A stretch of DNA of 60,729 nt, counting the filler, from Jimgerdemannia flammicorona (lineage: Eukaryota): NCBI GenBank assembly GCA_003990765.1. It is 2 parts of 2 records of this genome, joined end to end, with 100 filler letters (N's around TTAATTAATTAA, not from the genome) between each part and the next. Parts side by side here need not be neighbours in the genome. Positions count along the whole stretch, not along the records: positions 1 to 30,317 come from RBNJ01000448.1; 1 more part is not named here. One strand, given 5' to 3'. The notes below the pieces were generated by a model. It ran no database searches. It was given only the letters and a program-made list of their open reading frames with translations, and was not told where the DNA came from. Shown piece by piece: positions 17 to 60,729 of this stretch (position 1 is the stretch's first letter; each line of letters starts with the position of its first letter). The position numbers and the translations under genes are program-made.

Positions 17-3533
<3,517 letters not shown>

Positions 3534-7122: not shown

Positions 7123-7163
<41 letters not shown>

Positions 7164-7908
7164 CTTTTTCTTTTTTCCGCAAAACACTTGTCGCGCATAC
7201 ATAATTGTATATGTTCTTCGATTTGAACTTGATTTACAACTTTGTCTTCTGCTTATTGCCGATATTGAACGTAGTGCTCTTCTGCTGTGCGGATTTCTTT
7301 GCTTTATTTTTGTTAGAGCGTACATAAGAAATATAAACATTTGATATTACACATCGCAATATTGTGTTGGTTTTGATGATGCTTGTATGACGATGGCTGT
7401 TTGCAATATCCCTGGTGAGCGAAAATTACGCACGTATCCCATACCACCGTTTGGATGTCAACGATAAGAGGTTGCAAGCATCGCTAGCCGTTCAAGGCAG
7501 TCGACGAGGCAAAAGATCGCCCGGTTCCGCAACTCCGCTCCCGTTGCGGCTAGCCTGGCAGTAATACACGTACTTGTCAAATAAAAGGGAAACGCAATCT
7601 CGATGCTAACGCGACAGCAATTTCTTCATATGGACATAGTGCAGTTGGCCAAATCTGTCGACTGGGCTGAATTTCATGTGAAAAAGATTGCACCTGTGCG
7701 TCATCTCCCCACTAACAATGAAATCTCGAGGTGAAACCCAAGTCCATCCGTCGAGCGAGCGGAAATATTAGCCATTTAATCCATCGTGCTACATTAAAAT
7801 CCGTCCACTAGGGTCAACAACCGAGCATCAAATCCCCTCGGTATTGCATTTGTAACTATAAATGCCAAAAACCTGTTCGTGATGCCCACGTGGCGGTACG
7901 GGCTCAGC

Positions 7909-8043
7909 CAAAGAATGAGCAAGATAGGATGCATGTAGGTTTATCTCAAAGAATGAACAAGATGGCAGGTAATTTATCTCAGAGTGGACAAGATAGCATG
8001 TAGATTATCTCAAAGAGTGAACAAGATAGCATGTAGTTTATCA
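7909..8043. repeat. Minisatellite, about 4 imperfect copies of a ~33-bp unit (CAAAGARTGAACAAGATAGCATGTAGNTTATCT)
   Basis: Directly visible tandem units with no spacers, ending about 220 bp upstream of the ATG at 8266. Confidence 0.85.
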
Positions 8044-8265
8044 AGAATATCGCCGGTTCGTGTGTGTAGACGAGGACAAACCATGTCCAGGGATGACGAA
8101 AAATGTGTTTATTGTATTGCGATGAATAGATAGATGGTGTCGACAATGTAGACAGATCAGAGCTATGTATGATGTGAACAAGTGATGGATCAATAGTGAT
8201 GTCACTCGTCTCTTTTCTTCTTCCTTTGTAACCCTTCCCTTTCCACCCAAACTCTCGCAAAGGTC

Positions 8266-9648
8266 ATGACCGTTCCGAAGCTCACCAAGGCGACTGCGCG
8301 TGCTGTCCTCGAGGAAGTGGAGGTAGAACGGAGCTCGGAGGGCGGTAACAGCAATAGGTAAAAAAAGAATAAGATTCAGGGACCCGCGGCTGAAATAGCG
8401 ACCGAAAGAATTCTTGTTTAACCTGCGCTATCCCTTCAATCACCGGCCGGAATACTGTGCCTCACGCCTACTTCTGTCCGTCAGCGATGAATTCATCCAA
8501 ATGATCACCACTCTGAAGAGTAAGCGTCTCTTTGACCGTTTACCGCATGTGTATGGATCGTGCACTTCATTTTTTTTTTTTTTTTTCTTTTTTGTCAATC
8601 GCCTTTTACACGTTACACGCATTCACAGATGGCATCGACAAGAAATCCAAGCAGCAGCACAAGAAACTCTCGGCCGAATGCGACATGATCGCACAGGAGA
8701 TTGTCGAGCAGGCGCAAGAGCTGGAGGAGGGACAGGCGCGCGAGATGTGAGTTCACATGAATCCCTCGCATTTTCTATTTATGTCAGTTCCGATGAGATG
8801 ATTGTGAGATAATGTTTACCGGTCGCTGGTGTGCTCCACACCAATTTTTTTTATTCAACACTTTGCGCGATATGCAGGGAGCAGAACATCGCCAACTACA
8901 AGCGCAAAAATGACGAGTTGACGGAGGAGAAGGCCGACATTGTCAAGAAGCTTAAGGTGGAATTGGAGAAGTTTCAGGTGAGCCTCGATAGCGTCACTTT
9001 CACACAGTCGAAAGAAAATCATTCACTGTATATCGATGAATTGCAGCGGCGATGACGCTGTAGAAGTGGATGCGCGTAACTCAAGGCTTCTATCTGTTTC
9101 CGACATCGATAACATAGGAACTATGTAATTCAGCACTGACGGACCTTGAGAGAATACACGTGATTAACAACCAGGCAGAGAAGAAGCTTATGAAGGATGT
9201 GGAGGGGACGATTGATAGTGCGTGCAATTGTCTTTTTTCTCATTTGCATTTTCAATGTAGCTTGCCTCCGGTGAATCCATTGCCATGGATAAAGGAGGAG
9301 GCCAAACCAGCTCTTCGGGTACAATAAGTTTTGCCTCACATTTTCTCCGCGGTCGTCGTCCACAGTAGCTACGCTGAAAGTGGGGGGTAGCAGCGAGGCT
9401 CGTGACACCGACATCCTCGACGACCCCAATCGCGAACGTACTGACACGGGGAATGTGTCCAACGTCACCCCAAAAGTACGTTCGGCTTACTGCTCGAGTT
9501 TCTGAGATTTATTTTCCATAAAAACTTGTTCTTTCGTGGTCTGAAAACATTGTATTGTTCTACTGTTATCTAGAATCCTCCCCGTCGTAACAAGGATAAC
9601 GCTAACAAACCCAAAGGCAAGGCGACCACATCGAGGCGCAAAGCTTGA
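8266..9648 (+). CDS. Coiled-coil protein, paralogue A; candidate SYCP3/Cor1-like meiotic axis protein (~209 aa)
   Basis: Manual model with exons 8266-8357, 8485-8519, 8629-8746, 8878-8977, 9118-9217, 9366-9475, 9574-9648, all GT-AG and in frame. Translation MTVPKLTK...DEFIQMITTLKNGIDKKSKQQHKKL...EQNIANY...EKFQ... ending in a basic tail (NPPRRNK...SRRKA). The last two exons are less certain. Confidence 0.7.
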
Positions 9649-10014
9649 ATGTTTTGATTTCAGCAATGTTATCGGCCCCATCGTCGGGCGCTGGATGTTG
9701 TTGCTTTGATCGCCACTATCTTTCTTTTTTATATGAATGTAGATTTTTTTTTTTTGTCAATTAGCGCTACTTCCATTCGTGGTTACTTGTCACTTGAATT
9801 TCAGATATAATTCCATAATTTCTATCATTTACTTTCGCGCCATGCGTGCTGCCTACTTCGGGCCTGCTAGTTATAATTACATCGACCGGTTAAACCTTAT
9901 AATCGTTTGTGATCTCTCGACCGCCATCAATGACATAAACCTATGAAAATGATTTCATATGATGGCATGCAAAACCCAGTGCCGCTCAGCTTCCATCCAT
10001 TTCTCCTCCGAACC

Positions 10015-11316
10015 ATGCCCGCCCACAAAGGACCCCGGTACGCAAAGAAGAATACCCCAAAATCAAAGCATGTTCTCCAAGGTAGTCATCCATGCCACGC
10101 ATTCTCCTTTTGCCAGCGGGGCTCTACTGCAAAAAATAAACTTACGTTCGCACCCGCAAAGCACCCGCAACAGTCCCACGCCTCACCAAGAAGCAACGTC
10201 AGGTCGTGGACGAGGGCGACGAGGACGACGATACCTACGATAGCTCGACGCAACCCATGGCTTTCTCTTCCAAGGGTTCCAAGAGACATTCGGTCTCAAA
10301 CCCGATCGTGCACAGAGGTGACTCGCCGGGACCGAGCCAGGATATGACTCAGATACTGAATCTGTTGCATTGTAAGCTTTTTTTTTTTTTTTTGGTCATT
10401 CCCCGCGTCGTCGCGGCAATGGTCTTTCACACAAACACCCTTCACGTCTACTCATCAGCCCAGCAAAAAAAGAAAGCGAGTGCCCAGGCCAAGAAACTCG
10501 AACGTGACATCGAGACCAGACTGCAGGACGCGCAGCGCCAGTCGGAGGCCATTGTCGCGAGGTTCGAGCAGGATAGGTGAGGGTTTTGGCACATGTGCTT
10601 CCTCCCGCAACAATTGTTGTTCCCTTGCCTCACGAACTCCCACATCATGGCCCCAGCGAGGAGAGCCTGGCGCGCTATCTGGATACCCTCGACGCCGGCC
10701 TCGAATCGGCCGTCGACCATATCAAGGTGTTGAGGCAGACATTCGATGAGTTCCAGGTAGGCCCTTATCATTTTTTGTGCAAATACCGACGAGTGTCTCG
10801 GGTAATACTTTCTCAATCCAATAGCTTCATTTTCCTCTGCAACTAAACCCGATACATTCGCTACGCTTGCTTTCAGACCGCCAACCTGGCCCTAGTTGAC
10901 TCTCTCGAAAAACACGCTTCCCACGCCGGCAAGCGGAGGCGCGACCAGTCAAAAGAGGACGAGCAGATGCGTACGGTTCATACCCTTTTGATTCCTGCAT
11001 GGCTTGTTGAAGAACCATAATCTGGTCACACTTGAAACAACAACCCCCCCCCCTTTTCTCTCTGACACCTGCAACAGATAATGGGCATGCGGAAGATATC
11101 GCTCAGGCGTTTGGCCGCTTCGAGAAAGAGATCCTGGGGACCCGGAAAATGTTGAGGAAAATGAACAAGGTGTGGACGGTTGAATCTTGATTTGGATATT
11201 TGGAGAGAGAGCATATGGGTAATTACAATCTACACTTCTCAAACGTGGTTTTTATACAGGCTCACCATGACACCACCAAGTTCTCGCAGCACCTCCTCGC
11301 CTGTGTCAAGCCGTAA
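10015..11316 (+). CDS. Coiled-coil protein, paralogue B; candidate SYCP3/Cor1-like meiotic axis protein (~241 aa)
   Basis: Manual model with exons 10015-10081, 10174-10371, 10459-10576, 10657-10756, 10877-10970, 11078-11169, 11260-11316, all GT-AG and in frame. Basic/acidic disordered N-terminus, then a helical core ending RFEKEILGTRKMLRKMNK|AHHDTTKFSQHLLACVKP. Confidence 0.75.
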
Positions 11317-11887
11317 GGTCCTGCTCATCCTCCCGGTACATACGCAGCGGAGTAAGGACGGACGGAATCGGGGATTGGGTTTGAATGTTAACGGTGAAGG
11401 TTGCTGGGAGATGTGGGAACTGCACTCTCGGAATGCAAAGTGAATGTTGCAATTTATAAAAGTCATTTTATCGGTCGCGTCTTATGGCTATCAACAAACT
11501 ACATCTGCATTCTACATAATTAGTTTATATACCTGGCTAGATCTATACATGTAATCTCTGCTGACTTCGTTAAACATCGATATCGTTGTGTCGCTCTGTA
11601 ACATTTAACATATAATAGCCTATGGTTGCACTTTTCAATTAAACGCTTCCGAAAGCCAATAGCTTCTCAATCAAGCCATTGCAGTTCATCTATTCACTTC
11701 GTTTGATAAGGTATGTTCTATAATGATACAACCATCGAAAAACCAGAGAAGTATCTTCACGGAGTTACACGTTAAAAATCAGCAACTATTTACATGACGC
11801 ACCAATATTTGTGACTAGTATGGAGGAACGGAGGCTCGTCCCTTCCCACCGCCGATGCCCAACTTACAGTGCAATCCCCGTGCCAAC

Positions 11888-13642
11888 TCATATGGGATTG
11901 ATTCCCGAGATGCGCCTCAGCTGCTCAAAGATGATCAAGCTGACGATCGTGTGCGGACCAAGTCGTAGCCAACACATGAAAAACCTATTGGAGGAACGAG
12001 CAGACAAGCGTGAAAAAGCTGAAATACGGGCAACACGACAACCGCCCCACCCCAACCGACCACATAACCCACTCACCCCTTGTACAACGCGAGTGGCCCC
12101 TCCAACGCCACGGTCTTGCGCACGCATTCAAATGACGACGTGTATTTCAGCCCGCGGCCTGTCGCACTGTCAAAAGGTTGATTCATGTATCGGACCTTGA
12201 TCGTGTCGACCGGGGCGGAAGTGATGGAGCAAGCAAAGCCTGTGGGTATGAAAATGAGATTCGATATCGTGAAATCGTGTTCAGAACAGCATAAATTGAA
12301 GGGTCTTGATTCTTTCGACTTGTAGAATTTCTCTCAGTCCAAGTTCTCCACACAATCTTCCTTCCTCCATTGATTTCACTCGACACATTTTCCAAAAATT
12401 CTCCTCCAGAACACTCACCCGCAATGACCGAACTCGCCAAATGCGCCGGTAGCCCCTCCTTGACGACACCCTGCCCGATGAGCCAATGCTTCGTGTGATC
12501 ATAAGTGGCAAGCTGGCTGGCCGTGACCAGGGCTGCACGGGCCGTCGTGGGACCGACGCCGCGGTAGAGCCCAGCCAGACCCTCAGAGCGGTAGATCTCG
12601 GCGAAGGCGGAGAAAACCGAGCGGTAACGCGGAGTCGGGGACGGATTGTAGGCTTGTATTCGAACTGGAAGGAGGCGAATGGTGAGTTTTGGAAGGGCAG
12701 TGATGGAGAAGGAGGAGAACACGTTTGCAATGATGGAAGGCGGGGGTACCTTTCACTAAATCCGTTGGATTGGCGATGGCTAATCGATGATCGATCGGGG
12801 TCAATCGTGGATGGATGGTGAGAGTGCGGAATCAATACTGTCAGAAGACACGTCAAAGGCTCCACAGAGCATAGCATACTCATTCCAGCAATCAATAGCG
12901 CGACACGACCTAGACGAAATCCTTCTCGGCCACTAACCTGCTCCCGCCATCCCACTCGCCAACCCCGCCGCAATTTTCGTAACCAGCGCCTTTTCATTGA
13001 GCGTACCCCCCGAGGCACGGAACGCGAGGTTTTTGAACCAGTCGTAGGCACCAAAGCGTATCGTCGAGTAGGTGGCTGGAGGGAAGGGAAGAGAAGGAAG
13101 CTCAACCAGGGGAGAGGTTGTATAGTCCACAACATTTTGAAACCTCGACGCCAACCAGAAAAGAACATGTCAGGCAGTGATCATACCTTCTCGCAACATC
13201 CCCGCCGTGACCCCATTATAAAAAGACAGCGGCCCTTCATTCCTAAACATATTCAGTGCCACGCGCGCGAAGTTCTGATTGGCGGCCTTCTGCATGCCTT
13301 CGCCTTGAAGTTGTAACCGGACTTTGACAATATCGACCGGGTTTGTGACGAAGGAGCCCATCTATGGTAGATGAGCAACAGCGATCAAGGCTGAGCTTTA
13401 GGATACGGAAAAAATATTCACAAGTATTGGTCGAGAATGATTCTCCGACGAATATTTGAGCATACCACGCTACCCGTACCGGCGAACAAAAACTTCGCGG
13501 CAAGTTCTTTATTGTGTTGGCTGCTTGACACCGTAACGTGCGGTTTCGCTTCTGCTATGCTAGTGGTGGCGATGGTGGTAGTGGTGGGGCTCATAGATGA
13601 GGCGGGAAGCGTCATGGAAGATGTTGCTTCTGTCAAGGTCAT
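11888..13642 (-). CDS. Mitochondrial carrier (SLC25), UCP/dicarboxylate-oxoglutarate carrier-like; multi-exon
   Basis: Three PX[D/E]XX[K/R]X[K/R] signatures: PVDIVKVRLQ, PTDLVK|VRIQ, PVDTIKVRYM. Also GLYRGVGPTTARAALVTASQLATYDHTK and WLRLGPHTIVSLIIFEQLR. Confidence 0.9.
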
Positions 13643-15505: not shown

Positions 15506-16892
15506 TTAGTTCCGCGCCTGCGTATCATTCTTAAACCCTTCCAACGCCGCCTTGGCTCTCCCGTCAATGATTGCTGCCCTCGCGATCTCTACTCCCTCCT
15601 TGAATGTCTGGGCCTTCTTCGCCACGACCAACACTGCCGCCGCGTTGAGCAGTACAAAATCCAGGATGGGGTTGTTCTCGGGCAATTCGTTTGCTAGGAG
15701 GCGTTCCAGCGTCTGGACGTTGTCTGCGGGGCCGCCGCCGCGAACCGAGTCAAGGGTGTGGGTTTGGAGCCCGAAGTCGTGCGTGGGGTGGATGGCCGTG
15801 AATGTAATTTGGCCATCCTCAGAGAGCGTCCAGGTCTACGGAGGGGTGGGGAAGGAAGAGAGATAGGTTATTAATAGGGATTTAACAATGCAAACTCATT
15901 CTGGTCGCGCCGTGCTTATACCCATAATGTAATACTTACAAAGGTCTCGCCAGCAGGACTTATCTGAAATGAATTGTATGTATGCATGTATCAAACACAG
16001 GAATGAAGTCCTCTCTTCATGCCATCAATGGAATAATAAAATCAACACTTACCTCATCCAAACCCTCGGCTCCACACACCACCATGGCCCTCTTTGCTCC
16101 CGACAGTTTCAACGCCTCGATCATAAACTCGCCCACCCACTTCGAATGCACGCCAACGACGCTCCGCTTCGGCTTCGCCGGGTTGCTCATCGGACCCAGG
16201 ATGTTGAAGATGGTCGGAACACCGATCTCGCGACGCGGCTTCGAGGCATTCTTCATGGCCGGGTGGTACTTCTCCGCGAAGAGGAAACAGAAATTATGTT
16301 CGGCAATCATGCCCGGCACGAGATCCGAGGTGACGTTCGTGAGGGCGCAGCCGTAGGATTCGAGAAAGTCGGCCGAGCCTGAGGACGAGGAGGAGGCGCG
16401 GTTGCCGTGCTGGTAGGATTGGATACGATATACATATTTTTGGAGAGGGAGGTTAGGGATCTTGTGTGGCGTCATAACGGCAGCGCCCCATATGTCCTAT
16501 ATTATACAATACGCGGATCTCACCTTGGCCACCTTGCACCCAGCCCCGGCCGCCACAATGGCGGCAGTTGTCGATACGTTGAATGTATTATGGCCGTCCC
16601 CGCCTGTGCCCACAATGTCCACAATCTCTTCCGCCAGCGCTTGATCATGGAAGTGGACATGAACGGCGTGCTCCTGCATGACCTTCCCGCACGAGGCGAT
16701 GATGACAGGGTCCGCGTCCTTGCGGTGCAGACGACAGGCAACAAGGAAAGCGGAGATCTGGGCGGGAGTAGCGAGGCCGCTCATAATCTCATGGAGGGCC
16801 TGGTGCGCTTGCTCGGCGGTAAAGTTATGAGGGTGCATGATAAGTGTTTTGAGGATCGATCTGATCTGCGGTTCGGAAGAATGGTCTGACAT
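15506..16892 (-). CDS. TRP4: Anthranilate phosphoribosyltransferase; multi-exon
   Basis: Motifs [43 protein letters not shown]...[19 protein letters not shown] and [12 protein letters not shown]. Confidence 0.95.
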
Positions 16893-17784
16893 GTTTCGTG
16901 GCAGTGGTGTTGGGTCTAGGGTAGGAGTGAAAGTGGATGCGCAGGTTGTAGTTGTCTGCTCCACTTGGAGTGTTGATAATGACAAGAAAATTGTATGGGT
17001 GTATGGTTACCTTGTGTAGTTCAGGGACAAGAAGCAAAGAAAAGGAGGTTATCGGTGGCTTACAGGTTGTCGCGCCAGGAACCAGTCACGAATGGATGAT
17101 ATCATGGATGCTGAGGGAAAACTCTGATCTTGAAAAACCCCTCCTCCACTTGTAATGGACTCCACCATTCGTACGCTGCCGTTCAAAAAAACGTCGCCAA
17201 CATTGTACACAGCAGCATGGGTGGGCGGGCATGCCCCGAACTCAAGCGAACCTGGGAGCCTGATTAATGATACATTGCACCACTGTTACGTATCTTTGCA
17301 TACCCGTCGGGTATCAAGTTTGATGACCCCCTATTTTCATTCATGGTGCGCTTGATATTAGGTTGCAATCGTTCCGCCACTGCTGCTTTATCATCACGAA
17401 TCACGAAATGCCCAACTTGTCGTGTGAGAATATTATTTATTTATTTATTTATTTCGAGATATGTCCGAAGCGTCAATGCTACACACGAGGAAAATGGTGC
17501 TGCAGAGGTATGCTTTTCTTGCTATTGGCAATTATATCAAGGCTATGGAAGAAATGACACGAAATGGCCTTTGGTGTGTGATAGGGACCAGTTAAAGCTT
17601 AGATGTGAGGCACAGAGAACTAAGGGATTTTATTAGGGAGGTGAGGGAGGTAGGAGAAAGGTATGAGAAGATGTAATGTGAGAGATGACATCATGCATTA
17701 ATGGAGTAGTCACGAACAGTTATCACAATTCCCTTTACAGCCGGCCGCCGCTCTCCGCCCTCCTGCCCTCCCAACACACACACA

Positions 17785-20043
17785 ATGTCTGCAGACCCTC
17801 AACCCCCAACCACTACCGCCAACACCACCGCTACTGCCAGCACCCGTCCCGAGCCTGACTTCGGGCCTGACGATGACGAGTGGTGGGATATCGATGACGA
17901 GGACGGCGATGAGGACGTTGACGACGAGGACGATGAGGAAGGGGAAGAAGAAGAGGATGTGGCGGAAGAGGTGGACCAGAACGGAACCGCGCCTGTCGGA
18001 CCACCTGTTGAGGCGTCCAATGGGCCGCTCGGAGTCGAACGACGAACAACTACGCCACTGAAGCCGGCGGCGAAGGTCGTTCCCAAAGTGGATGAGGTTG
18101 ATTTGCGGAAGAAAATTCTGGCTATCCAGCAGGAGGTGGGTTTGGACGCAAAGGACAGGGCTAGACGTATTCAGGTATGTGTTGCAAGTTTGAACTATAT
18201 GTGCTTATTGCTTTCGACAACGACTGTCGTATCTTTTGATCTCGAATTATGCCTGAACCACGACGTTTTTCTCGTTCTCAACTATCAATACGAAATATTT
18301 TGCTTCATTCCTTCAAGGAATTGATGACTTCCGGCTACTCTGGTAGAAAACTGGGATCTTCGTCGTCCTCGAAGAACGGCAAGGAAAGATTTGAGCCTGA
18401 CGCCGACATGAACGAGCTAACAGAAGAAGATTTGAGGACAACGTATAATGTGAGATTCCGATATTGGTTGACTATGACAGTTATTGTCTTTCAATTTACG
18501 TTGGTCAGCCTTGTGCAAAAACACTTACAAACCACATTTAATCATCAGAACGAAGCTCGGGGCATTATGGGGTGCAGCCATTACCAACGTGGTACTAAGT
18601 TGAAGGCTAATTGCTGCGGGAAGTGGTTTTCGTGCCGCTTCTGCCATGATGACATCTCAGATCATAGCATCATACGGTGATTACTTACTTCGACCACTGT
18701 GTCCATGTGGAGACGATCGTTGCTGAAACTTCTGATACACTCTAATCTAATCGGTCAACTCACAACACTCTCTCCCCTCTCCAGCCATGAAACCAAGACG
18801 ATGATGTGCACGCACTGCAAGACAGTCCAACCCGCCGCCCAAATTTGCTGCAACTCTTTGTGCAAAAAGCAGCTCGCGCGCTACTATTGTGACAAGTGTA
18901 AGTTGTGGGACGACGACGCGTCCAAGAACATCTATCACTGCGACCAGTGCGGCATCTGCCGGATCGGTAAGGGGCTCGGGCAGGATTACTTCCATTGCAC
19001 CAAGTGCAACGTGTGCATGAACATGTCGCTTAAGGATAAGCATCGATGCATCGAACGGAACCTCGAATGCGATTGCCCGATTTGCGGGGAGTACATGTTT
19101 ACGAGCACGACGGTGGTGATATTTATGGTATGTATTTTTATTTTTTATTTTATTTTATTTTTGGCAGGACGTTACAATCCAAGTCAACATGCTCGAGGCC
19201 ATCTGTGATAATTGGTGGTATAATATTTCGAGATATCTATTTAAATCAGCATATCAATTCTTCCCACAAAATTTCTTTGTCATTCTGCAGCGCTGTGGTC
19301 ACTGTATTCACCAGACATGCCACAACCAATACATCGAAACCTCGTACCAATGCCCCACCTGCCTTAAATCCCTCTGGCCTATGAACACCTATTTTGATCG
19401 GATCGACCGTGTTATGGAGCAGCAGCGGATGCCGCCTGAGTACGATGACTTCGTATCGCACATCCTCTGCAACGACTGCGAGAAGAAATCACATGCCAAG
19501 TACCACTTTTTGTACCACAAGTGCCAGCACTGCATGTCCTATAACACTACCGTCTTGCAGACGATTCAGGAATCCAGCGGCCAGAGCGTCGCCAATCTGG
19601 CCGCTGCCACCGCCGCGTCCAACGCCAACTCAGCGGGGCCCGTGCCTGGGCTGCTAGCAGGTCAGGTCGGCAGGACCGGAGTCACCGCAAGCCTGCCGAC
19701 CACGGCCGGGCCTAGTTCTACTGCTCAGGCGTCACCAGCAGCGTTGGCGACAGCGACGACCTTTACCCCGCCCCCGGTGCAGCCTGCCGCGGCGGAATCT
19801 ACTTTCACACCGCAGGAAAATATTGTGCTGCAAAACTTCTTCCAGGCAATGACTGAGCGGCAAGCTCGCGGCGAGGGTTCCGCTGCTCCTCAAGCTGTCA
19901 CCACAGAAGCATTGCCCTCACCGTCGTCATCTGCATCGGGGTTGACATCGCCAACAGCGCTAGTTGACTTCTTCCAGTCGCTAATGGCTAGGAGTGCGAA
20001 TGGAGATGCTCAGGGTGGCGGTGAACAGGAGCCAAGGGAGTAG
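17785..20043 (+). CDS. RCHY1: CHY/CTCHY/RING-H2/zinc-ribbon E3 ligase (Pirh2/RCHY1 family), with acidic N-terminus and low-complexity C-terminus
   Basis: GCSHYQRG...CCGKWFSCRFCHD (CHY); YYCDKCKLWDD...YHCDQCGICRIG (CTCHY); CPICGEYMF...CGHCIHQTC...CPTC (RING); ILCNDC...YHFLYHKCQHCMSYNT. Confidence 0.92.
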
Positions 20044-30257: not shown

Positions 30258-30317
<60 letters not shown>

Positions 30318-30417: not shown

Positions 30418-32349
30418 TTTTTTAATAGACTTTCTTAACTTTATCAAAGTTTCCATTAGAGTATTTACTAGCTTATATTTACTCGTATTAAATTGTTTAA
30501 AAATAACTTAAATATAAGCTGATTATAAGAGAGGGCTACTAGGGGGACTTCTTTTGCTCAAACCACTTAGAGCAAGCTAAGCTATATAGGTATCTTTTTA
30601 TGAAAAGCAATATGTTTTCAAGTTTTCACTTTATCTACACTGGTATACTAGGTGTGGCAGGAGTTGGCAATAATAAACAATAAGTTTTGGCAAAATTTAT
30701 TAAGTTTTCATCTAATGGTAATCCAAGGTTCATTAAGCTCTGAGCATTTGGATTAGAGGAGGCCTGGCCTAGGCCTCTCCAAGAGTTTTGCTATAGTAGC
30801 TGGAGCTGGTACTGCTACTGGTGAGACAGGTGATCAGAGGAGGTCTACTGATATCAAAAGCTGGTATACTGTAGTGGGGGGCAGGAGGGCTACTGTTAGA
30901 CCCATGGAGATAGAACAGGGGAGATATAGTATTGATAGAAGGAGGAGTCAGATGACTGGTCAGATGACTGGTCAGGTGCCCAGCAGGAGACAGAGGTCTG
31001 AAGGCATGATAGTTGAGACTGGTTTTTCTGAGGCTGAGCCAGTGGCTGGTGGGAGAACTACTGGTGGACTTGAAGGAGCTGGAGGGATAACTATAGAAGT
31101 TTCAGGAAGTAAGAGGAGAGTGATAATAGCAGTAGGCTCTGGTGAACTAGTAGTGTATCCTTTCTTCCACAAATCAGTATCAATGTGGATAATCTCAGTA
31201 AACTTCTTGGAGCTGAGTATTTCTGCCAGAGAGATTTGGTAGCTAATAAGTGAGGAGGTTATTAGTGCAGATTCTCTGAAGTTTATTCTGTCAGTAGAGG
31301 CAGTAGAGATTGGCTTTATGAAGGAAGAGAAGATGGTGAAGACTCTGGAGAAAGGGTTGGTAGTCAAGAACATCAAGGTTGAAATGGTAAGGTGCTTGAG
31401 GTGGGATCAGCATATAGTATGTCTAATGGTAGAGAGGTTGTTGACATTGGGGAGACAGAAGGCTAAGAGAATTGTGACAGAGGCACTGGTGGGCTTGGGC
31501 ATGGCCTTGTATATAAATTGGGGTCTTGGGTGTATGCTTTTGGTCATTAGCATATGGCTGAGTTCCCCCTGGTGGTAGGGAGAGCATGGTGTGCAGAATG
31601 AGGTGTGGGCCAATGTAGGCCCTTCTGTGTCTGGCATGGTTGAGCTACTGGACAATAGCTAGTCTAGGTTAATGGGGGGGCAGTGCTTGATGGGTGGTGG
31701 GGAAGGGTTTTGGCCTATATAGTCTAGGTTCCCTTCCAATAAAAATCTGCAGGACTCTGAGTCTGTAAAACAAAAGAGAGACACTGGTGGGCTTTAGTAA
31801 GATGGTCAATTTCAGATTCATGTTCTGGAAGAAGATTAAGCTAAGAAATGGCAACTGTGAGATTATGGTGAGACTAGAGGGCAAGGAGGCCATGGGACTG
31901 ACCAGAGGTATGTAATTCATATTGGTGATCAGAAGTGCAAGGTTTGGAGAAGAAAGAGATCCAAACAGGAGGAGGAGGAATTGTTGCTAGCTTTGGAGAA
32001 GAGAGAGGCTGCAAAGGATTTGTGAAAGAGGAGATAAGAAGAGTTTACCAAGGACTGGATATGGATTTCAATGGATGAGAGAAGGAAGAGATAGTAGAAA
32101 GTGAATTGGAAATGTCTGCAGATGGTCCTTCAGGGTTTGAAAGTGGAGAAAGAAGTAAGGGCAAGAGTTAGCTCTAGAAAGGACTTTGATTGAGATATTA
32201 ATCTAATCTTGAAATCAATAAGTATAGATGATATACTCTATATAAAATTGAACTTAATCCAAAGAAAACAGTCTTTCAGAATATCTAGAACTTCTAGAAA
32301 AACCCTTCTAGAACTATATAATAGTACTCTAAAAAAGTACCCACTTAGC

Positions 32350-35300
32350 TTATATGAAAAATATATCACCATTATTGTCAGTTTTGATAATATTTGAATA
32401 ATATTGTTCTTTACTATTATATCTCTTTCTGCTACTCCTATACTGCCAATACTGGCTTCTATACTTATTTTCATTGTTTTTTATATCCTTATAATAGTAA
32501 TCATTTTACCTATATCTGTACTTACTGTAGTTATGGTAGTTTTTATTATATTTTTTATATTTTTGGTCTTATTGGCACTTCTTACTTTATCTGTATGACT
32601 TATAGAATACTTTCTTATCATTGTTGTTGCTACTGTTTCCTTGATATATCTCTTTATTAATTAGGCTCATTGTTACATAAATATAGTTCTCAAGTTTCCT
32701 ACTCATATATATAGCTACTACTATAATATTACATATCTTAGAGAGATCTTATATAAGGACCAGAATCTTGTTTTCATTGCTGATATACTCGGCTGGTATG
32801 CTTAGAAAATTCGCCTGATTTACTAAATTATCAATATGTTTGATATATTTATAAATACTCTACTTGAGTTTTATTTATAAATAAAATAGCTGAGATTTTA
32901 GATTGAATCAATTTGTTGAGAATACTTATATATAATGATTGCATAGAGTCTTTCATATATTATAAACTATTATAGTGTATATTATAAGCTTCATTTATTA
33001 GTTTAATAATATAAAGGTAATCTATTATAATATTTAATAATTATTTATAGTATCATAACCTTAAATCTATATCTACAGTTTTATATGCTTTGTTAAGCCA
33101 TACTCTACTCATATAGAATGCTCAAATAATATAATTCTTATTATTAAAGATAACAATTGACCTCTTGGCTATATTTATATTTACTGCAGAAACTGTGACT
33201 ATTGTCTCTATTTTAGAGATACTCATATCTACTGTATTCAGTATATTCATACTGGTTTCTGGATTTATCTATACAGTATCTTAATATAGAGTCTTAGAGT
33301 GGTATTTCTTGTTAGTCACTAAGTGGGATATATAATATTTATTATAACTTAGTAGAGTAGATACTAGAGAAAGAGAGAGTAAAATATTATTTATAATTTC
33401 AGATAGTATATATTTATCTATTAAGTAATATAACTCAAAGATAATATAGTTAAATATATAAGTATAGATTCTAAGAAGTAGTAAATAGTCTGAGTCAAGA
33501 TTGCTCTGAATTTATAAATTAAATAATAGAATTAAAATTATTTTCAAGCTAATCTAATTGATAAAGATAGAGATAGCTATTATTACTTATAAGTTTAATA
33601 TATTTTAAGTATCTTGTATAATTTGAGAGGTTATATAAAAGAATTTCTATATTTGATCTAGCTTGTATAGCTTGTATAGCTTATACAGCTTATATAGTTT
33701 ATATAGTTTATAATTTATATTAACTCCTATAGCTTAAATAGCTTAAATAACTTATATAGTCTTTATAACTTATATTTTTTAAAAAAGCTTAGATAGTATA
33801 GGTTTAAGTAAATCATATAAGCTTAATTTTTTATCAAATATAATATTCTAATTTTTATTATTTATTCAATTTTTATAAATTTTTTCAAATTTTTATTATA
33901 TATATATATTTTTGCTCAAATTTGTTATTAATTCAATTTGACTTTTTTTTTTGATCAAATTTTTTATAATTCTATGATTTGATAAATTTGATTCTAATAA
34001 TATATTATATATAAATACTAGTAGTAGTAGTGATAGTACTATTATAGATTTAATCTGAAGTAAAAGATCAGATAATAAATATATATTATAAGACTATAAT
34101 AGTGACTGAAGAAATAACTGACCAATATATAAGGGCTAGTCCAGAGATAGAAAATCTCTTTAGAATGAGTCTGAAAGTTAGGCAGCTTATAGAGGTACTC
34201 ATTCTGTACTTAGATTATATATTATATATAATCTATAAGATAAAGAGTTCTATAATTAATATTGTAAAGATATCTGTAACTAAGACTAATACTATGGAGA
34301 TTTCTGAAATCAATAGTAAAAGATTAGAAATTTAGAAGTTAGTATAGATATCAAGGCTAAATAATTGATAAAAAGATCAGAGTCAAAGACTATGTCAATA
34401 GTAGTAGAGATAGTTACTAATATATAGAATTTTTCTTAATAATTAATATAAATTAATAAAGTCTATATCAGCAGATCAAGGTATTGTATTAGATAATAGT
34501 ATTATAGAGATAGTAGATATTATAGGATATTGCTGGGTATAGAATTATATTTGAGAAGATAGTAGAGCACTCTTATTTGTATTTACTCTCAATATTGATA
34601 TATATATTAATAATATTAAGAATTGTAATGGAGTCTATATAGAGAGGGCATACATTTGACCCAGTTCAGTGATGGCTGGAAAATTGATTACTAGTAGTAT
34701 GATATATGAGGTAGGAGTTAAGAGTAATATATATAATAGGTAGTATTATTTGGATAATTAGTTATAGTGAGGTTTGTTTATTATTAGCATTTTTTTAATA
34801 TTTTTTTTTTTATATTAATAAACTGTAAAATATAAGTAGAATGTAAAAAATGCAGAGTAATAATATATATATATTTGAAGTCAGTATAAGTAAAAGAAAA
34901 CAAAATGAAAGTATAAAGAGATATAATTTTGCTTAAAATATATATGATAAAGAGTTAGGATTCCCTATTTATATAATTGTTGTGCCATATCTTTACATGC
35001 TATCTTTCTCAGAATCCCTTCAGTGAAATAGATAGTAGATAAGGTCCTATATTTCTGTGAGAAAGCATGCAATCATATTTCTTAATAAATCCAATATTAT
35101 GACAAAGTAAATAATAAATCAAATGACAGTATTGCAGATTAAAAGATCTGCTCACATCATGGCTTTTGAGAAATACATACCAAGTTGTAATGATTTAGGA
35201 AAAAGACAGAATATCAAAAAAAAAAAATTACCTTTAGAGTTGGTGGAAGTCATCCTGTAATCTTATTTACCAGAACCCATTTTGCAGACGAAATATTTAT

Positions 35301-35400
35301 TACATACAATATTCAAAATCCTGGTAACCCTCATGAACCCAAAATGAATGGCTGTACTTTGCTCTCATTTTTAAAATCTAATAATTTTCTAGGGCGGCAT
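32350..35400. mobile_element. Heavily decayed AT-rich transposon relics, family not identifiable; 9-bp minisatellite (AGCTTRTAT) at about 33660-33770
   Basis: Near absence of CpG, visible TpA excess, no credible ORF. Confidence 0.5.
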
Positions 35401-35699
35401 CCTAAACGAGGGTCATACTAACAATTGGGCTGAATTTCATGGTATGACAACGGATGTTTCTGCTTCCATGTGACCAAAACACTCTCTTATACGTACTCAA
35501 AGTGACGAAGTTCTCGAGCTGGAACGAGAAGCCGGCATGCTCGTTTTTTGAGTAAGACATAACTCTCTGATTTCAATCGGTGTGATATGATATGGACACC
35601 GCGACTTATTTGGCGGCTTAATTTTTGGATCGCGAGTAACTAACGGGAGCTTTATAGCAAAAAAAAACCTTTGACTTTGTTCAGTCATTCCATTACCGG

Positions 35700-37400
35700 A
35701 AATATTTTCTTTTAAGTATTTATTGAAAGGTTCCTGAATTACATTATCTGTTAGCCTACCCGCGGAAGTGACTTATATTACAGTATATCGCGCACTATTT
35801 CAATTGTGCTTTCGAAAATAAAATAAATAAAATCTATTCTGAAGTGGCCTGGTAATGGTTTCACTTTCCTCCAGATCTAGAACCTTTTGGGCTTGCGATT
35901 CTTTTAAACATTCTGGTAGATCACAAATGTTCGAACGACATTGGTAATACTTATTAGGTTTTTAGTCCACGTACCAATATCATCGCATCGTTCCTTCTTT
36001 CCATCAACCACGCCACAATTGACTGATTAGTAATTGTACAGGCTTTCTTCATTTGCATTATTATACGGAAAATGACCCAAAAGTGGTAAAGTCGTGGCTG
36101 GCGCAGGGGAACACGAGGCGTATATACATACCGGCAATAGTTCTGACCTTGAGGATATGTCGTCATGTCGATTTTGAGAAGTCTTAGTTTCAGCTCGCCA
36201 TTCTGACGGTTAAATATCACTACAGGACGAGAGTCCGGCGGATTGACAGATTTGGGATTTACTTATCCCGAGCCAGCATAGGCCATTCCAGGTTGTTGGA
36301 TACGGAGAAGCCAAGTAGTAATAGCGTTTGCTGGTTCGAACGCGACCCAAAACCCGGTACTCCGTGCCCTTTCAGATGGAATGGCACCACGATTCCGTTC
36401 TAAACCAAAGCGCAAATTGGATCTACCAACGAACGGGACGAATATATATATATATGTGGCTGGACCACAATAGTGTTCGTTCAATATAAATACTATTTTT
36501 ACATTAGTGTATGAATTTTGAAAATGTAATATTATCTCGTTCAGCAAAATGGCGAAATCATTTTATACAGGAGCCTGTGCCTCACCTTGCTCCTAATCAG
36601 AATGTTAAACGTTTTGGGATTTGCAACTCGTTACCTAGTAATTTGAGTAATTTGAGGTATATGTTATTTGTGGCTTACGTAAACGTATTCAATGGCGACG
36701 TCACTAGAAATCAATCACAACGCGTAACATATATTATCAATAAAGTTGCCGCTCTTCGCTAAGCGAAGTACGATCTACAAAACATTATATTACAGTAAAT
36801 CGCACATATAAGTTGTCTTCCTAATACACGTAAACGGAGATATTGCGCCAACCACCGCACCACTATTCTATCAAAAAAAAAAAAAATAAAAAAAAAGGGA
36901 CAGAAATTTCAGCGGGGTTTGGTTGCGGAGAGCGAAATCGCTTCCGCACCAATCACCAGCCACGTCCTCACATCATCCGCGAATCGGATAAAAAACTACA
37001 GCATCGACCAGCGCCCGGTGTACCGCACGGTGTACCGGGCGTTAATAATTAATGTGCAGTCGAATAATATTCCTTTTTTTTAAAAAATTTCTTCGGTGTG
37101 TTGTATGCTACCATTCTTTTGGATAAGGGTTTATTTTCAATGGTTTCGAACCGAGCTTTGTGATTGGCAGGATTTCGTACGCCATTTGGGACTTTTTAAT
37201 TTTTTACGCAACATTCCCCTCGAACATGAAGTCTATTTTCAATGGCAACGTTACAATGTAAACCCTTCCTCGTCGGCGTCAAGCCAGGCGTACATCCCTC
37301 CGTCATATAGTCCTCAAAGTCAGACGCAAGTGAAGCACATGACACGACAAAACCTGGAGACCCTGGCGTATAACGTCACGTATAGGTTGAATTGAATTGA
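35700..37400 (+). repeat. Module copy 1 (diverged; homeobox part absent)
   Basis: Collinear anchors shared with copies 2 and/or 3: TTAGCCTACCCGCGGAAG (35751), GCTTTCGAA (35808), AAATCGCTTCCGCA (36935), ATGGCAACGTTACAATG (37241), AAGTCAGACGC (37317). Confidence 0.7.
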
Positions 37401-47453: not shown

Positions 47454-50400
47454 TTTTTTTATTTTTTTATTTTTTTTTATAGTTACTTAAACTCCATCCT
47501 TTATTAATATACCTATCTAACCCATATATAATACACTGAGCCCACCCCTAACTGATCCCCCTAGGGGGACTCCCCCCCTCCCACAACTACTCAATTAAAG
47601 ACCAGGTTATTAACTATCTCCACCCACCCCTCACTTTGTTTATAGATCCCTTCTACTAGTTGGCACTGATGCCCACCCCATCCAACCCACCACCTAGTCA
47701 ACATATCTCCCAACAACCCTTTCCATCTTAGTAATCTTTCCTGTAATCCTATCTGTTGCCTCTCTTCAAAAACAAAGAGCCAATGTCCAGCCAGCCCTAC
47801 CCATACAGCTAAAACCCACTCTACAGTAAGCCATTCATTACCCACCCCCCCCATCAACCTGGTCCTCAAATTCTCCCAATGATCTCACTCTCCATCAGGC
47901 CTCCTCTTCATCCCCAGCCAGTCTCCTACTACTATCCAAAAGTCCCCCAGAACCTCACACTCTCCCAGCCAATGTTCTGGTATCTGTACAAACCCCCAAC
48001 CTATCCTACATTATAACACTCCTCACATTCTAGAAATCCTCCATCCATCAGATGTTCAGCACGAAAATTCAACATAATATTCCTCTGCAGCATCTACCAC
48101 CAAACCACCCAATATTTGGAAGAAAGCCACTTCTTTATCTCAGCACTCTATGACCAAATGTCTGCCCAATCCCACTTCTCTCCAATCCTTGCCACTTGTC
48201 AACTGCTAGGCCAGAGGTCCTGACCAAGTTCCCTCTGACACTCCACTCCCTCACCAATATCAAACTCCAGAAGTAGAGTGCCCCCCAACAGCAGTCTGTC
48301 CCATCTCTACATCACCAGTTCCCATAGCATCTCTCTTTCATTGCTATGCCAGCATAAGCCTATACAGTGTGCTCTATCTACCACCTCTCACCAAAAGTCT
48401 TTATATCATAGCTGATGACTTCTACCCAAACCTACCATAGATAGAAGGTCTCCTGAGGTCCCCCTCAGGGAGAATCTCATTTCTCACACCTTCTGCATTA
48501 GCAGCACCCATCTCCCCCCCCTGTAGTTCAGCAGCCCTCCTTAACCACCAAGCTCTCAGACAGTACAGCCTCTTAGGGAAATCCACCAACCCTAGTCCCC
48601 CATGGATCACTGGTTTAGAGAGCATATCCCAACTGATCTGGAACTGCCTCCTAGCCCAAATCCAATCCCTAGCCAGTTTCATCAGTCTCTTCACCACTCA
48701 AGCTGGAAAGTCCAAGCGATAAATAATATACCATAGCTTGAGGAATCAGTAGACATTCAGAATTGATATCTGGCCTGCTAGGGAGATATGGCAACCACCC
48801 CAACCTCAAAGAGCCTCCCCCCAGATATCCACCCTCCTCTCCCACCACACCCAGGGCAGGACAGAGCTATACACTGAAAGAAAGATGCCCAGATACCTCA
48901 CTGCCTCTCCTACAGGGACAATTGTTCCATTGATATCTCCTCCAACTAGCCCATTGCCTAACACCATTGTCTCACACTTATGCCAGTTGAGTTTTGCTCC
49001 AGAATGTATCTCATACCATTCTACCATCTCCTTGAGTGCCTCAACATCCACCACTGATCTAAGTCCAACCACTATGTTATCTGCAATACCCCCACCTTCC
49101 ACACTACACCATAGAGAGAGAGCCCTGCCACCTTCCATCCAATCCTATCCATTAAAGGCTCTAAGGAAAGGGTATACAAAATAGGAGACAGTGGATCCCC
49201 CTGAGGAACTCCTCTCACCAAGGGAAATACCAGACCTCAGTAGCAATTATACATCAGTACTGCCCTACTGCCCTCCAACAGACTCAATATAGAGGCTTGA
49301 AAGATTGGGGGGACTCCAATTCTATCCAGCATTTTGCCTAGCCATACCTACTAAATGTGGTCATAGGTCTTCTCCTGGTCCAAAAAGACCAGTCTTCCAT
49401 CCAATCCACTAGCCTGTGCTCCTTCAATGATGCCATGGATCCAAGCTGTCTTATATCTCTGATAAGTCTGCTACCAACAAAGCCCCACTGCTTTCTCCCC
49501 AGCACCTGTTAGGCAACCTTCTGTATTTGCACTACAACCACCTTAGTAATCGTCTTCCTGTCTATATCCAGAAGTATGATCAGTCTCCAGTTATTCCAGT
49601 CCTCTCTCCTCCCCTTGTCCTTGTACAACAGGGCCACCAGCCCCAGTTCTTACCCTCCAACCCACTGACCATTCAGATGAACATAGTCACAGAGGGCTGC
49701 CATCTCCCCTAGTACTCCTGGGATCCACACTATCTTCTTCCAAAAGTCCCAAGATAGACCATCCTCTTCTGGTGCCATTCTAAGCTTAGTGGCCACCAGA
49801 ACTCTCTGGATCTCCTCCTCTTAGACTGATAGGAGCAAATCCTCCAGGCCCTCCACTTGTGGCAGCTCCCAAACCTCTAAAGTGTCTTCAATTGTCTGAG
49901 CATCAGTATCTTCTTCCTCTTCACTCCATAGCCCTCTCCACTGCTTCTTCAACAGCCCCAAAATCTGTTGTGTACTATGTACCATTTCCCCCTCAGTGTC
50001 CAGAATACCATCTCATCAATGTCATACTCTACTTGTCTGGAGGAGCCTTGACAAGTACCATGTAGGCCTCTCACCCTCCTCAAGCCCTTGCTATCTCAGC
50101 TGAGCTGCCATTTTCTTCAAATGCGACTCTTTCTCCTCTCTCAACACCTGTTACATCTCCACTACTTCCAACTTAGCTCTCCCTAGCCTCCAATCATCCT
50201 CCTCTCCAGAGTTTAACAATGCAGCTCATCCATCTGCAATCTAACCAATCATATAGAAGCACACCTCACTCTTCTCCTTTGCTGTCTCCCAGCATCCCTT
50301 CCAACTCCTCCCCAGTAATCCCTCATAGCCTCTTTCAACTTCATCTACCTAATATCTACTGGCAAGCCCTCACATATCCAGCTGATGAGCCTCACCTGAA

Positions 50401-53115: not shown

Positions 53116-53129
53116 GATCTTATATTTAC

Positions 53130-53630
53130 CACTACATTCACTCTTGCATATTTTGATTTCCTCAGGTTAAGCAAGATCACATGGAACCATCTCTTTGACT
53201 CTATCAAACATATCTCTTAGGGCTATATTACCTTCTATCTCTTAATCTCTAATCTCTCTTATCATTCTGATACTCTCTTTCTCCAAAACTAACCTTTTTC
53301 ACCACAGTATCCCTATCTACATTCCCTGGGCTCCCCCAGACTTGCTCTGTACTATTTCCCTCCTCTAATACCTTTATCTCTCTTTTCTGACAGCCAATAA
53401 TATACATTTATTTTCATTACTCAGTTAGCATATATTGTCTTGCTAGTGGCTAATTGACCATTTACTTTCTCTTTTATCCTATATTGGTCTTAACCCCTGT
53501 TTATATGCTGGATATAGTTTTCTGATCAGCACTACCTTAGATACTATAGCAGTCAGGCTATTAGACTATGAGATTCAGATTTTGGATCATTGCATAAGTA
53601 ATGTGTTTCACTTTTATATTTATATACCTA
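53130..53630 (+). pseudogene. Tyrosine recombinase C-terminal remnant of the Ngaro element
   Basis: Reads YAGYSFLISTTLDTIAVRLLDYEIQILDHCISNVFHFYI, which resembles the DIRS/Ngaro YR box GHSFRIGAAS...G.SDYEIQILGRW.SDAF.LYI after mostly C>T and G>A changes. Confidence 0.75.
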
Positions 53631-53729
53631 TCTCATATTTGCTTTCTCTCTACTCCTCCACTATCTCCATCCTTCTCTCTTCTATACTATATATGTATCT
53701 CTTTCTTAGACTAATCACTCATTACCTTC

Positions 53730-60660: not shown

Positions 60661-60729
<69 letters not shown>

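What the first reader, a model, noticed from the sequence alone, without database searches (positions are those of the whole stretch)
8266..11316. Tandem pair of SYCP3/Cor1-like genes: a candidate two-subunit meiotic chromosome-axis system in an early-diverging fungus
Seen in the sequence: two adjacent same-strand genes encoding ~209 and ~241 aa helical proteins with charged, disordered ends. Recalled, not searched: human SYCP3 from about residue 68 ([25 protein letters not shown]...Q..........Y) aligns without gaps to gene A DEFIQMITTLKNGIDKKSKQQHKKL...Q..........Y, with E, M, I, K, K, L, Q and Y identical. Gene B's end (RFEKEILGTRKML...|AHHDTTKFSQHLLAC) resembles the SYCP3 end (EFKKEMAMLQKKI...|QQQEIASVRKSLQSM). 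In that alignment the phase-1, phase-2 and phase-0 introns fall at SYCP3 V79, R118 and L151, where I recall human SYCP3 having its 118- and 100-nt exons; this needs verifying. Established: axis cores are four-helix coiled-coil filaments, often heteromeric (SYCP2/SYCP3, ASY3/ASY4), and fungal Red1/Rec10 show little sequence similarity to SYCP3. Inference: recognisable SYCP3-type proteins persist in this fungal lineage as a linked A/B pair, which would bridge animal and fungal axis proteins and imply meiotic capacity.
Basis: partly seen in the sequence, partly recalled or inferred. Interest (0 to 1): 0.85.

Follow-up and report, generated by a model that had tools for sequence, protein, structure and literature searches.

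The report
Tandem coiled-coil gene pair, possibly SYCP3-like
Two neighbouring, expressed genes of an Endogone-type fungus encode related long-helix proteins of an unnamed family found in early-diverging fungi; they may be the fungal counterpart of the meiotic chromosome-axis protein SYCP3, but this rests on indirect evidence only.

Summary
Two same-strand, 7-exon genes lie at 8266-9648 (A, 209 aa) and 10015-11316 (B, 245 aa, not about 241). Spliced RNA-type contigs confirm all 12 introns. A and B are paralogues: exons 3 and 4 are 118 and 100 nt in both, intron phases match, and B fits the family profile colinearly.

A belongs to a small unnamed family. Members were found in Endogonales, Glomeromycotina, Spizellomyces and Paraphysoderma.

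The SYCP3 reading is only partly supported.
- No Pfam Cor1 match in 9 exon pieces or 7 family proteins at E<=10.
- No SYCP3 chain in 6 PDB sequence searches.

Against that, a protein-language-model search of two family members puts SYCP3/Cor1, XLR and ASY3-like clusters among the nearest neighbours. The fold is one helix of about 127 residues with disordered charged ends.

The claim that intron positions are shared with human SYCP3 could not be tested. SYCP2/3-family genes are already reported in fungi, including Spizellomyces (PMC8131943). I put a SYCP3-type axis protein at about 0.5. Interest is moderate.

The parts
8266..9648 (+). Gene A. It has 7 coding exons (8266-8357, 8485-8519, 8629-8746, 8878-8977, 9118-9217, 9366-9475, 9574-9648) and encodes 209 aa. 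It is the conserved member of the fungal family.
   Evidence: Gene model. All 6 introns appear as GT..AG joints in spliced contigs. It scores 97.9 bits against a family profile built without the Endogonales members. Exon 3 is 95% identical to database protein P0001.
10015..11316 (+). Gene B. It has 7 coding exons (10015-10081, 10162-10371, 10459-10576, 10657-10756, 10877-10970, 11078-11169, 11260-11316) and encodes 245 aa. It is a divergent paralogue of A with a longer disordered N-terminus and a helical part that runs to the C-terminus.
   Evidence: Gene model. All 6 introns appear as joints in X1, and 5 of them also in X2. It scores 28.7 bits against the same profile, colinear with A (E 1e-10 for 2 targets). 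BLASTP against A gives 25% identity over 118 aa.
8629..8977 (+). Gene A exons 3 (118 nt) and 4 (100 nt) with the intron between them. This is the most conserved core of the family.
   Evidence: In a six-frame scan of the window with the family profile, these two exons gave the best hits, 30.3 and 28.1 bits. Invariant family columns lie here.
10459..10756 (+). Gene B exons 3 (118 nt) and 4 (100 nt). They have the same lengths and the same entry and exit phases (1 to 2 to 0) as A exons 3 and 4.
   Evidence: The alignment between A and B is gapless across both exons, so three introns lie at homologous positions.
9649..9902 (+). 3' untranslated region of gene A. B's start codon follows about 113 nt after the end of this region.
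   Evidence: RNA-type contigs of X1 and X2 run on to 9899-9902 (table 8).

Best explanation
A and B are tandem paralogues that encode small coiled-coil-only proteins. Each has a short basic/acidic disordered head and one uninterrupted amphipathic helix. The helix is about 125 residues in A-type proteins and probably about 160 in B. A also has a basic tail.

A is the Endogonales member of an uncharacterised family that is also present in Glomeromycotina, a chytrid genus and a blastocladiomycete.

[quoted passage not shown] B would be a lineage-specific second subunit or a specialised variant.

What is shown: the gene models, splicing and expression, the paralogy, the family and its taxa, and the single-long-helix model. 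What is inferred: kinship with SYCP3/ASY4-type proteins, oligomerisation, the meiotic role, and any A:B pairing.
For: - Language-model feature search of the Spizellomyces member P0007: the first hit is a cluster named synaptonemal complex protein 3 (Cor1 on 83% of members), score 0.92, with 194 of 256 features shared. 11 of 30 hits fall in that family set. An XLR cluster (Cor1 92%) scores 0.89 and an ASY3-like cluster 0.87.
- The same search on residues 44-207 of the Endogone orthologue P0002: the SYCP3 cluster is second at 0.89 (185 of 256) and ASY3-like scores 0.85. An ASY3-like cluster is also second by predicted structure, TM 0.61/0.46.
- Architecture: the AlphaFold2 model shows one helix, 27-153, with pLDDT above 90 and disordered ends. 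It superposes on 141 of 143 residues of human SYCP3 chain 4cpc_A, but at a Z tied with many other long coiled coils.
- Size (150-245 aa) and a basic N-terminus match the SYCP3/ASY4 type described in PMC6349405 (passages read).
- Taxa: members were found in lineages where PMC8131943 reports SYCP2/3-family genes (Spizellomyces punctatus is named; Diversispora epigaea is used in its search path). None came up from Mucoromycetes or Zoopagomycota, where that paper reports loss of HOP1 and SYCP2/3.
- Both genes are intact, correctly spliced and present in RNA-type contigs of two studies. 2 of the 3 exonic differences seen are synonymous.
Against: - No Pfam Cor1, ASY3-like or Red1 match at E<=10 in 9 of 9 exon pieces or 7 of 7 family proteins.
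- No SYCP3 chain among the hits of 6 PDB sequence searches, including a family profile. The best hits were designed helical bundles, WTAP, haemagglutinin HA2 and similar.
- The language-model search gives no alignment and no E-value. The tool states that shuffled proteins reach a first hit of 0.9 or more 4 to 10 times in 100. The two queries are homologues of each other, so they are not independent.
- The structural match to SYCP3 is not discriminating: rank 21, Z 7.8, with the top hit at 8.2 and 871 chains at Z>=5. Foldseek found nothing.
- The A-type helix (about 127 residues) is shorter than the roughly 160-175-residue SYCP3 unit.
- Gene A transcripts also occur in root metatranscriptomes, meaning vegetative or symbiotic tissue. 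A strictly meiosis-specific gene would not be expected there.
- No SYCP2-type or HOP1 partner could be sought, because no genome is held.
Confidence: 0.5

Rival explanations
1. A and B belong to a lineage-restricted coiled-coil family with no evolutionary or functional link to the chromosome axis, for example a nuclear, cytoskeletal or vesicle-tethering adaptor. The SYCP3-like neighbours in the language-model search would then reflect only shared generic features: length, one long charged helix and disordered ends.
For: All alignment-based tests were negative: Pfam and PDB sequence searches. The single-helix model ties with hundreds of unrelated coiled coils. The top neighbour of P0002 is an unnamed cluster, not Cor1. 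Gene A is present in root metatranscriptomes.
Against: Two family members independently land on Cor1, and both also on ASY3-like. Those are two different families of the same meiotic structure, picked out of 7.7 million clusters. For P0007, 9 of the ten best hits that carry a family share the family or clan of the best one. The taxa parallel the reported distribution of SYCP2/3 and HOP1.
Confidence: 0.35
2. The two genes do not form a two-subunit system. B is a fast-evolving duplicate of A that is redundant, neofunctionalised or on its way to loss, and the conserved working unit is an A-type homo-oligomer as in the other fungi.
For: Every relative found is A-like: 7 proteins at E<=0.001 among 1.84 billion representatives and 5 in the profile search. 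Only one gene per species was seen in other lineages. B is only 25% identical to A and scores 28.7 bits against 97.9 for A. A search with B's 69-aa exon 2 found no relative.
Against: B keeps an intact 245-codon frame across 7 exons, all 6 of its introns are spliced, and it is present in RNA-type contigs of two studies. The one exonic difference seen in B is synonymous. Known axis cores are often heteromers of paralogous coiled coils (PMC6349405; PMC8131943).
Confidence: 0.4

Closest known systems
Metazoan SYCP3 / Cor1-Xlr-Xmr family (Pfam PF04803; human SYCP3 structure 4CPC)
   Same: Both are small coiled-coil-only proteins with a disordered charged N-terminus and one very long helix. SYCP3/Cor1 is the nearest named neighbour in the language-model feature search for two family members. 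The model superposes on the whole 4cpc_A chain.
   Different: There is no Pfam Cor1 match and no sequence match to solved SYCP3 chains. The A-type helix is about 40 residues shorter. A-type proteins have a basic disordered C-terminal tail, whereas SYCP3's helix runs almost to its C-terminus. Oligomeric state and meiotic role are untested.
Plant ASY3/ASY4 and fission-yeast Rec10/Rec27 (SYCP2-type plus SYCP3-type pairs of the SYCP2/3 gene family, PMC8131943 and PMC6349405)
   Same: In each case a short coiled-coil-only protein accompanies a paralogous coiled coil. PMC8131943 infers recurrent, lineage-specific duplication of the coiled coil. ASY3-like clusters are among the neighbours.
   Different: Here both partners would be coiled-coil-only and sit in tandem. 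No ARM-PH (SYCP2-type) gene lies in the window, and none could be sought elsewhere. No sequence-level link was shown.
Uncharacterised proteins of early-diverging fungi: Jimgerdemannia flammicorona BC936DRAFT_149766, Endogone sp. BC937DRAFT_91263, Spizellomyces punctatus SPPG_07945, Spizellomyces sp. 'palustris' SpCBS45565_g02160, Paraphysoderma sedebokerense BKA69DRAFT_506783, and unnamed proteins of Acaulospora morrowiae and Diversispora eburnea
   Same: These are true homologues of gene A (E 5e-14 to 5e-6; profile E 1e-49 or better), with the same architecture and 9-10 invariant columns.
   Different: None carries a name, a Pfam domain or a described function. The deposited J. flammicorona model disagrees with the RNA-supported splicing at exons 1-2 and exon 5. 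No second, B-type copy was seen in them.

Membership tests
SYCP3 / Cor1 (Pfam PF04803) | Match to the Pfam Cor1 profile | tested here: not met
   hmmscan at E<=10 gave 0 of 9 exon pieces and 0 of 7 family proteins P0001-P0007. P0008 and the full spliced A and B proteins were not scanned, because joined sequences could not be handed to the tool.
SYCP3 / Cor1 (Pfam PF04803) | Detectable sequence similarity to solved SYCP3 chains | tested here: not met
   Six PDB sequence searches at E<=10 (A exon 3, B exons 3 and 6, P0002, P0007, profile A1) returned no SYCP3 chain.
SYCP3 / Cor1 (Pfam PF04803) | One long continuous helix with disordered N-terminus | tested here: met
   The AlphaFold2 model of P0003 built with alignment A2 has a helix at 27-153 with pLDDT above 90. 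VIA-align gives 4cpc_A Z 7.8, rmsd 7.1, 141 residues aligned, tied with many coiled coils, so the feature is not specific.
SYCP3 / Cor1 (Pfam PF04803) | Antiparallel tetramer that assembles into fibres | tested here: inconclusive
   One four-copy complex job gave no verdict.
SYCP3 / Cor1 (Pfam PF04803) | Intron positions and phases shared with metazoan SYCP3 genes | not testable with these tools
No metazoan gene structure is on hand. The only external anchor is that a human exon starts at c.553 (variant c.553-16_19del, PMC8935243, passages read).
SYCP3 / Cor1 (Pfam PF04803) | Meiosis-specific expression and localisation on chromosome axes | not testable with these tools
   Only the presence of spliced transcripts is shown: X1 and X2, and gene A also in root metatranscriptomes X3 and X4.
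SYCP3-type members of the SYCP2/3 gene family as defined in PMC8131943 | [quoted passage not shown] | not testable with these tools
   The coiled-coil-only part is met. No profile-profile library was available.
Unnamed early-diverging-fungal coiled-coil family (P0001-P0008) | Significant colinear match to the family profile | tested here: met
   With a profile built from the four non-Endogonales members, A scores 97.9 bits and B 28.7 bits (E 1e-10 for 2 targets, filters off), over the same exons. No third copy was found among 1936 six-frame pieces of the window.

The most novel reading that the evidence does not exclude
A and B are orthologue-grade relatives of metazoan SYCP3 and retain three or four ancestral intron positions: the phase 1, 2 and 0 introns that flank the 118- and 100-nt exons, and one near human c.553. 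A coiled-coil-only SYCP3 gene would then predate the animal-fungal split, rather than arising by duplication in the metazoan ancestor as PMC8131943 infers. In Endogonales the gene would have duplicated in tandem into an A/B pair that builds a hetero-tetrameric axis core from two SYCP3-type subunits.
Probability: 0.2. Interest if true: 0.7.

Novelty: new member of a known kind. Interest (0 to 1): 0.45.

Why it matters
If the family is SYCP3-type, it gives early-diverging fungi a small, easily recognised marker gene for a canonical meiotic chromosome axis. That includes arbuscular mycorrhizal fungi, whose meiosis has never been observed. It would also allow a test of whether the coiled-coil-only axis subunit is older than animals.

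The tandem A/B pair would be a natural case of a freshly split axis subunit.

If the family is not SYCP3-type, the finding is still a correctly modelled, expressed pair from an unnamed conserved fungal family. It also corrects one deposited gene model.

Tried and rejected
- **Whole genome.** None is held, so SYCP2/Red1, HOP1 and further copies could not be sought.
- **Spliced proteins.** The spliced A and B proteins could not be given to Pfam, PDB, structure or complex tools, because joined sequences may not be typed. Database orthologues were used as stand-ins, and A and B were analysed only in local scripts.
- **B exon 2 search.** A search for longer relatives with this 69-aa exon found none.
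- **Metagenome scan with P0002.** It returned three AT-rich loci (L001-L003). These match only the untranslated-leader part of that partial record and consist of a repeated element, so they are unrelated.
- **Foldseek against PDB.** No matches.
- **VIA-align wide search.** Only ties among long helices.
- **Four-copy complex prediction of the P0003 core.** No verdict, score 0.00. This is neither for nor against binding.
- **Earlier-findings look-ups.** Nothing relevant by place, words or sequence.
- **Literature: human SYCP3 exon boundaries.** A search for c.353+, c.354-, c.453+, c.454- and c.552+ together with SYCP3 found no paper linking them.
- **Literature: gene structure.** A gene-structure search was uninformative.
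- **Literature: papers and files not available.** PMC2668043 and PMC4171419 are not held.
- **Depth in RNA contigs.** Depth was not used to rank expression.
- **Apolipoprotein Pfam hit of P0007.** It scored 19.1 bits against a cut-off of 90 and is treated as coiled-coil noise. PMC8131943 mentions the same artefact for SYCP2/3 profiles.
Full report
**Anatomy.** The region carries two genes on the + strand. I built the models from GT..AG sites that keep the frame.

Gene A has 7 exons: 8266-8357, 8485-8519, 8629-8746, 8878-8977, 9118-9217, 9366-9475 and 9574-9648. It encodes 209 aa. Gene B has 7 exons: 10015-10081, 10162-10371, 10459-10576, 10657-10756, 10877-10970, 11078-11169 and 11260-11316. 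It encodes 245 aa.

**Expression and splicing.** One search for public runs found four holders. Laying them on 8200-11400 gave 12 joints, and these are exactly the 12 modelled introns.
- Gene A introns: intron 1 in X2; intron 2 in X2; intron 3 in X2 and X3; introns 4 and 5 in X1 and X2; intron 6 in X1, X2 and X3.
- Gene B introns: intron 1 in X1; introns 2-6 in X1 and X2.

X1 and X2 are labelled RNA only by guess, but contigs that lack all introns must derive from RNA. X3 and X4 are root metatranscriptomes and hold parts of gene A only. Contigs cannot rank expression.

Three exonic differences were seen: L56I and one synonymous change in A, and one synonymous change in B. A's transcript runs to about 9900, roughly 113 nt before B's start codon.

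**Paralogy.** Exons 3 and 4 are 118 and 100 nt in both genes. They are entered in phase 1 and left in phases 2 and 0. Introns 5 and 6 are phase 1 and phase 0 in both genes. BLASTP of A against B gives 25% identity over 118 aa, with E 2e-8 in a one-sequence search space and composition correction off.

A profile built only from the four non-Endogonales relatives scores A at 97.9 bits and B at 28.7 bits (E 1e-10 for two targets), colinear over the same exons. The same profile finds no third copy among 1936 six-frame pieces of the window. A and B are therefore an old or fast-diverged tandem duplication.

**Relatives.**
- A search with A's exon 3, lengthened to 42 aa, found Jimgerdemannia flammicorona BC936DRAFT_149766 (95% identity) and Endogone sp. 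BC937DRAFT_91263 (75%). The window therefore comes from an Endogonales fungus.
- The deposited J. flammicorona model differs from the RNA-supported splicing at exons 1-2 and lacks exon 5.
- phmmer with the Endogone protein against 1,835,955,588 representatives gave only 7 proteins at E<=0.001.
- A word-seeded profile search gave 5 proteins at E<=1 among 2737 candidates.
- Names: Spizellomyces punctatus SPPG_07945 and Spizellomyces sp. 'palustris' (the latter); Paraphysoderma sedebokerense; Acaulospora morrowiae and Diversispora eburnea. One 79-aa fragment is unnamed.
- All are called hypothetical or uncharacterised and carry no precomputed Pfam domain.

The alignment has 9-10 invariant columns, including one cysteine. 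I can state where the family was found. I cannot state where it is absent.

**Test of the SYCP3/Cor1 reading by alignment methods.** Pfam hmmscan at E<=10 found no Cor1 in 9 of 9 exon pieces or in 7 of 7 family proteins. Every listed match was below its curated cut-off and of a generic helical kind.

Six PDB sequence searches at E<=10 never listed an SYCP3 chain. It shows that the family is not a recognisable Cor1 member at HMMER level. It does not exclude a remote relation: PMC8131943 (passages read) needed up to 16 iterations and profile hopping to connect the fungal, plant and animal axis coiled coils.

**Indirect evidence for the reading.** The language-model feature search gave the following.
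- For P0007, an SYCP3 cluster (Cor1 83%) was first hit at 0.92 with 194 of 256 shared features. 11 of 30 hits were in that set. An XLR cluster scored 0.89 and an ASY3-like cluster 0.87.
- For P0002 residues 44-207, an unnamed mainly apicomplexan cluster was first (0.90). The SYCP3 cluster was second (0.89, 185 of 256) and ASY3-like scored 0.85. An ASY3-like cluster was second by structure.

By the tool's own figures, a first hit of 0.9 or more occurs for 4-10 in 100 shuffled proteins, while 170 or more shared features is typical of true family members. The two queries are homologues, so this counts as one line of evidence and a lead.

The AlphaFold2 model of P0003 with alignment A2 is one helix, 27-153, at high confidence with disordered ends. 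It aligns to 141 of 143 residues of 4cpc_A (Z 7.8), but so do many long coiled coils (top Z 8.2).

PMC8131943 states that SYCP2/3-family genes occur in a wide variety of fungi, including Spizellomyces punctatus. It also states that HOP1 and SYCP2/3 are absent from Mucoromycetes and Zoopagomycota. The taxa in which I found the family fit that picture.

**Intron argument.** I could confirm the phases and exon sizes in A and B, but not the human ones. The only outside anchor I found is the variant name c.553-16_19del (PMC8935243, passages read). It places a human exon start at c.553. This is suggestive at most.

[quoted passage not shown] They would form tetrameric rods and filaments in the way described for SYCP3, SYCP2:SYCP3 and ASY3:ASY4 (PMC6349405, passages read). 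I give this a confidence of about 0.5. Nothing shows that A and B bind each other.

The main rival is an unrelated lineage-restricted coiled-coil family, at about 0.35. Because fungal SYCP2/3-family genes are already in print, this is at most a new member of a known kind. The tandem duplication and the possible shared introns are the new elements.

Searches for prior mention found nothing in main texts:
- SYCP3 with fungal lineage names: none of the 15 listed papers mentions SYCP3.
- SYCP3 with arbuscular mycorrhizal: 0 papers.
- SPPG_07945: 0 papers.
- Jimgerdemannia with meiosis: 2 unrelated papers, seen as a listing only.

The supplements of PMC8131943 could not be read and may already list these proteins.

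Noticed in passing
window 7931-8042: A 33-bp unit is repeated 3.4 times (81% matches) just upstream of gene A, in its promoter or leader region. The leader of the X2 transcript contig includes sequence from about 8071-8100, which holds an upstream ATG out of frame with the main ORF. This is a possible uORF.
   Followed up: partly
P0001 (J. flammicorona BC936DRAFT_149766) compared with window 8266-9648: The deposited gene model reads intron 1 sequence as coding. It also replaces exon 5 (9118-9217) with a stretch translated from inside intron 5. Both conflict with the spliced contigs and with the Endogone orthologue.
   Followed up: yes
window 48000-60729: About 12 kb has strong strand asymmetry (GC skew -0.39 to -0.50); the + strand is C/T-rich and G-poor. 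This may be a large retroelement on the minus strand. It ends in a 64-T run at 60666-60729.
   Followed up: no
window 32000-36000: An AT-rich island (GC 24-29%) carries 9-bp and 55-bp tandem repeats at 33659-33796. Long poly-T runs also occur at 7125-7176 and 30260-30317.
   Followed up: no
window 724-2971 (-), 12183-13180 (-), 16497-17006 (-), 19120-20043 (+): Neighbouring genes, identified by Pfam hits on open frames: an AAA ATPase with lid domain, a mitochondrial carrier, an anthranilate phosphoribosyltransferase-type enzyme (Glycos_transf_3), and a CHY/RING zinc-ribbon protein. The X1 contig that covers gene B runs on for about 2.1 kb past 11400, probably into the convergent carrier gene.
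   Followed up: partly
gene B, exons 5-6 (10877-11169): B's C-terminal part shows a faint second match to the start of the family domain (1.0 bit). This hints at an internal repeat of the first helix segment, but it is not significant.
   Followed up: no
L001-L003 (metagenome contigs): AT-rich contigs (GC 33%) carry a repeated element whose translation resembles the untranslated-leader part of the partial Endogone record P0002. They are unrelated to the gene family.
   Followed up: partly
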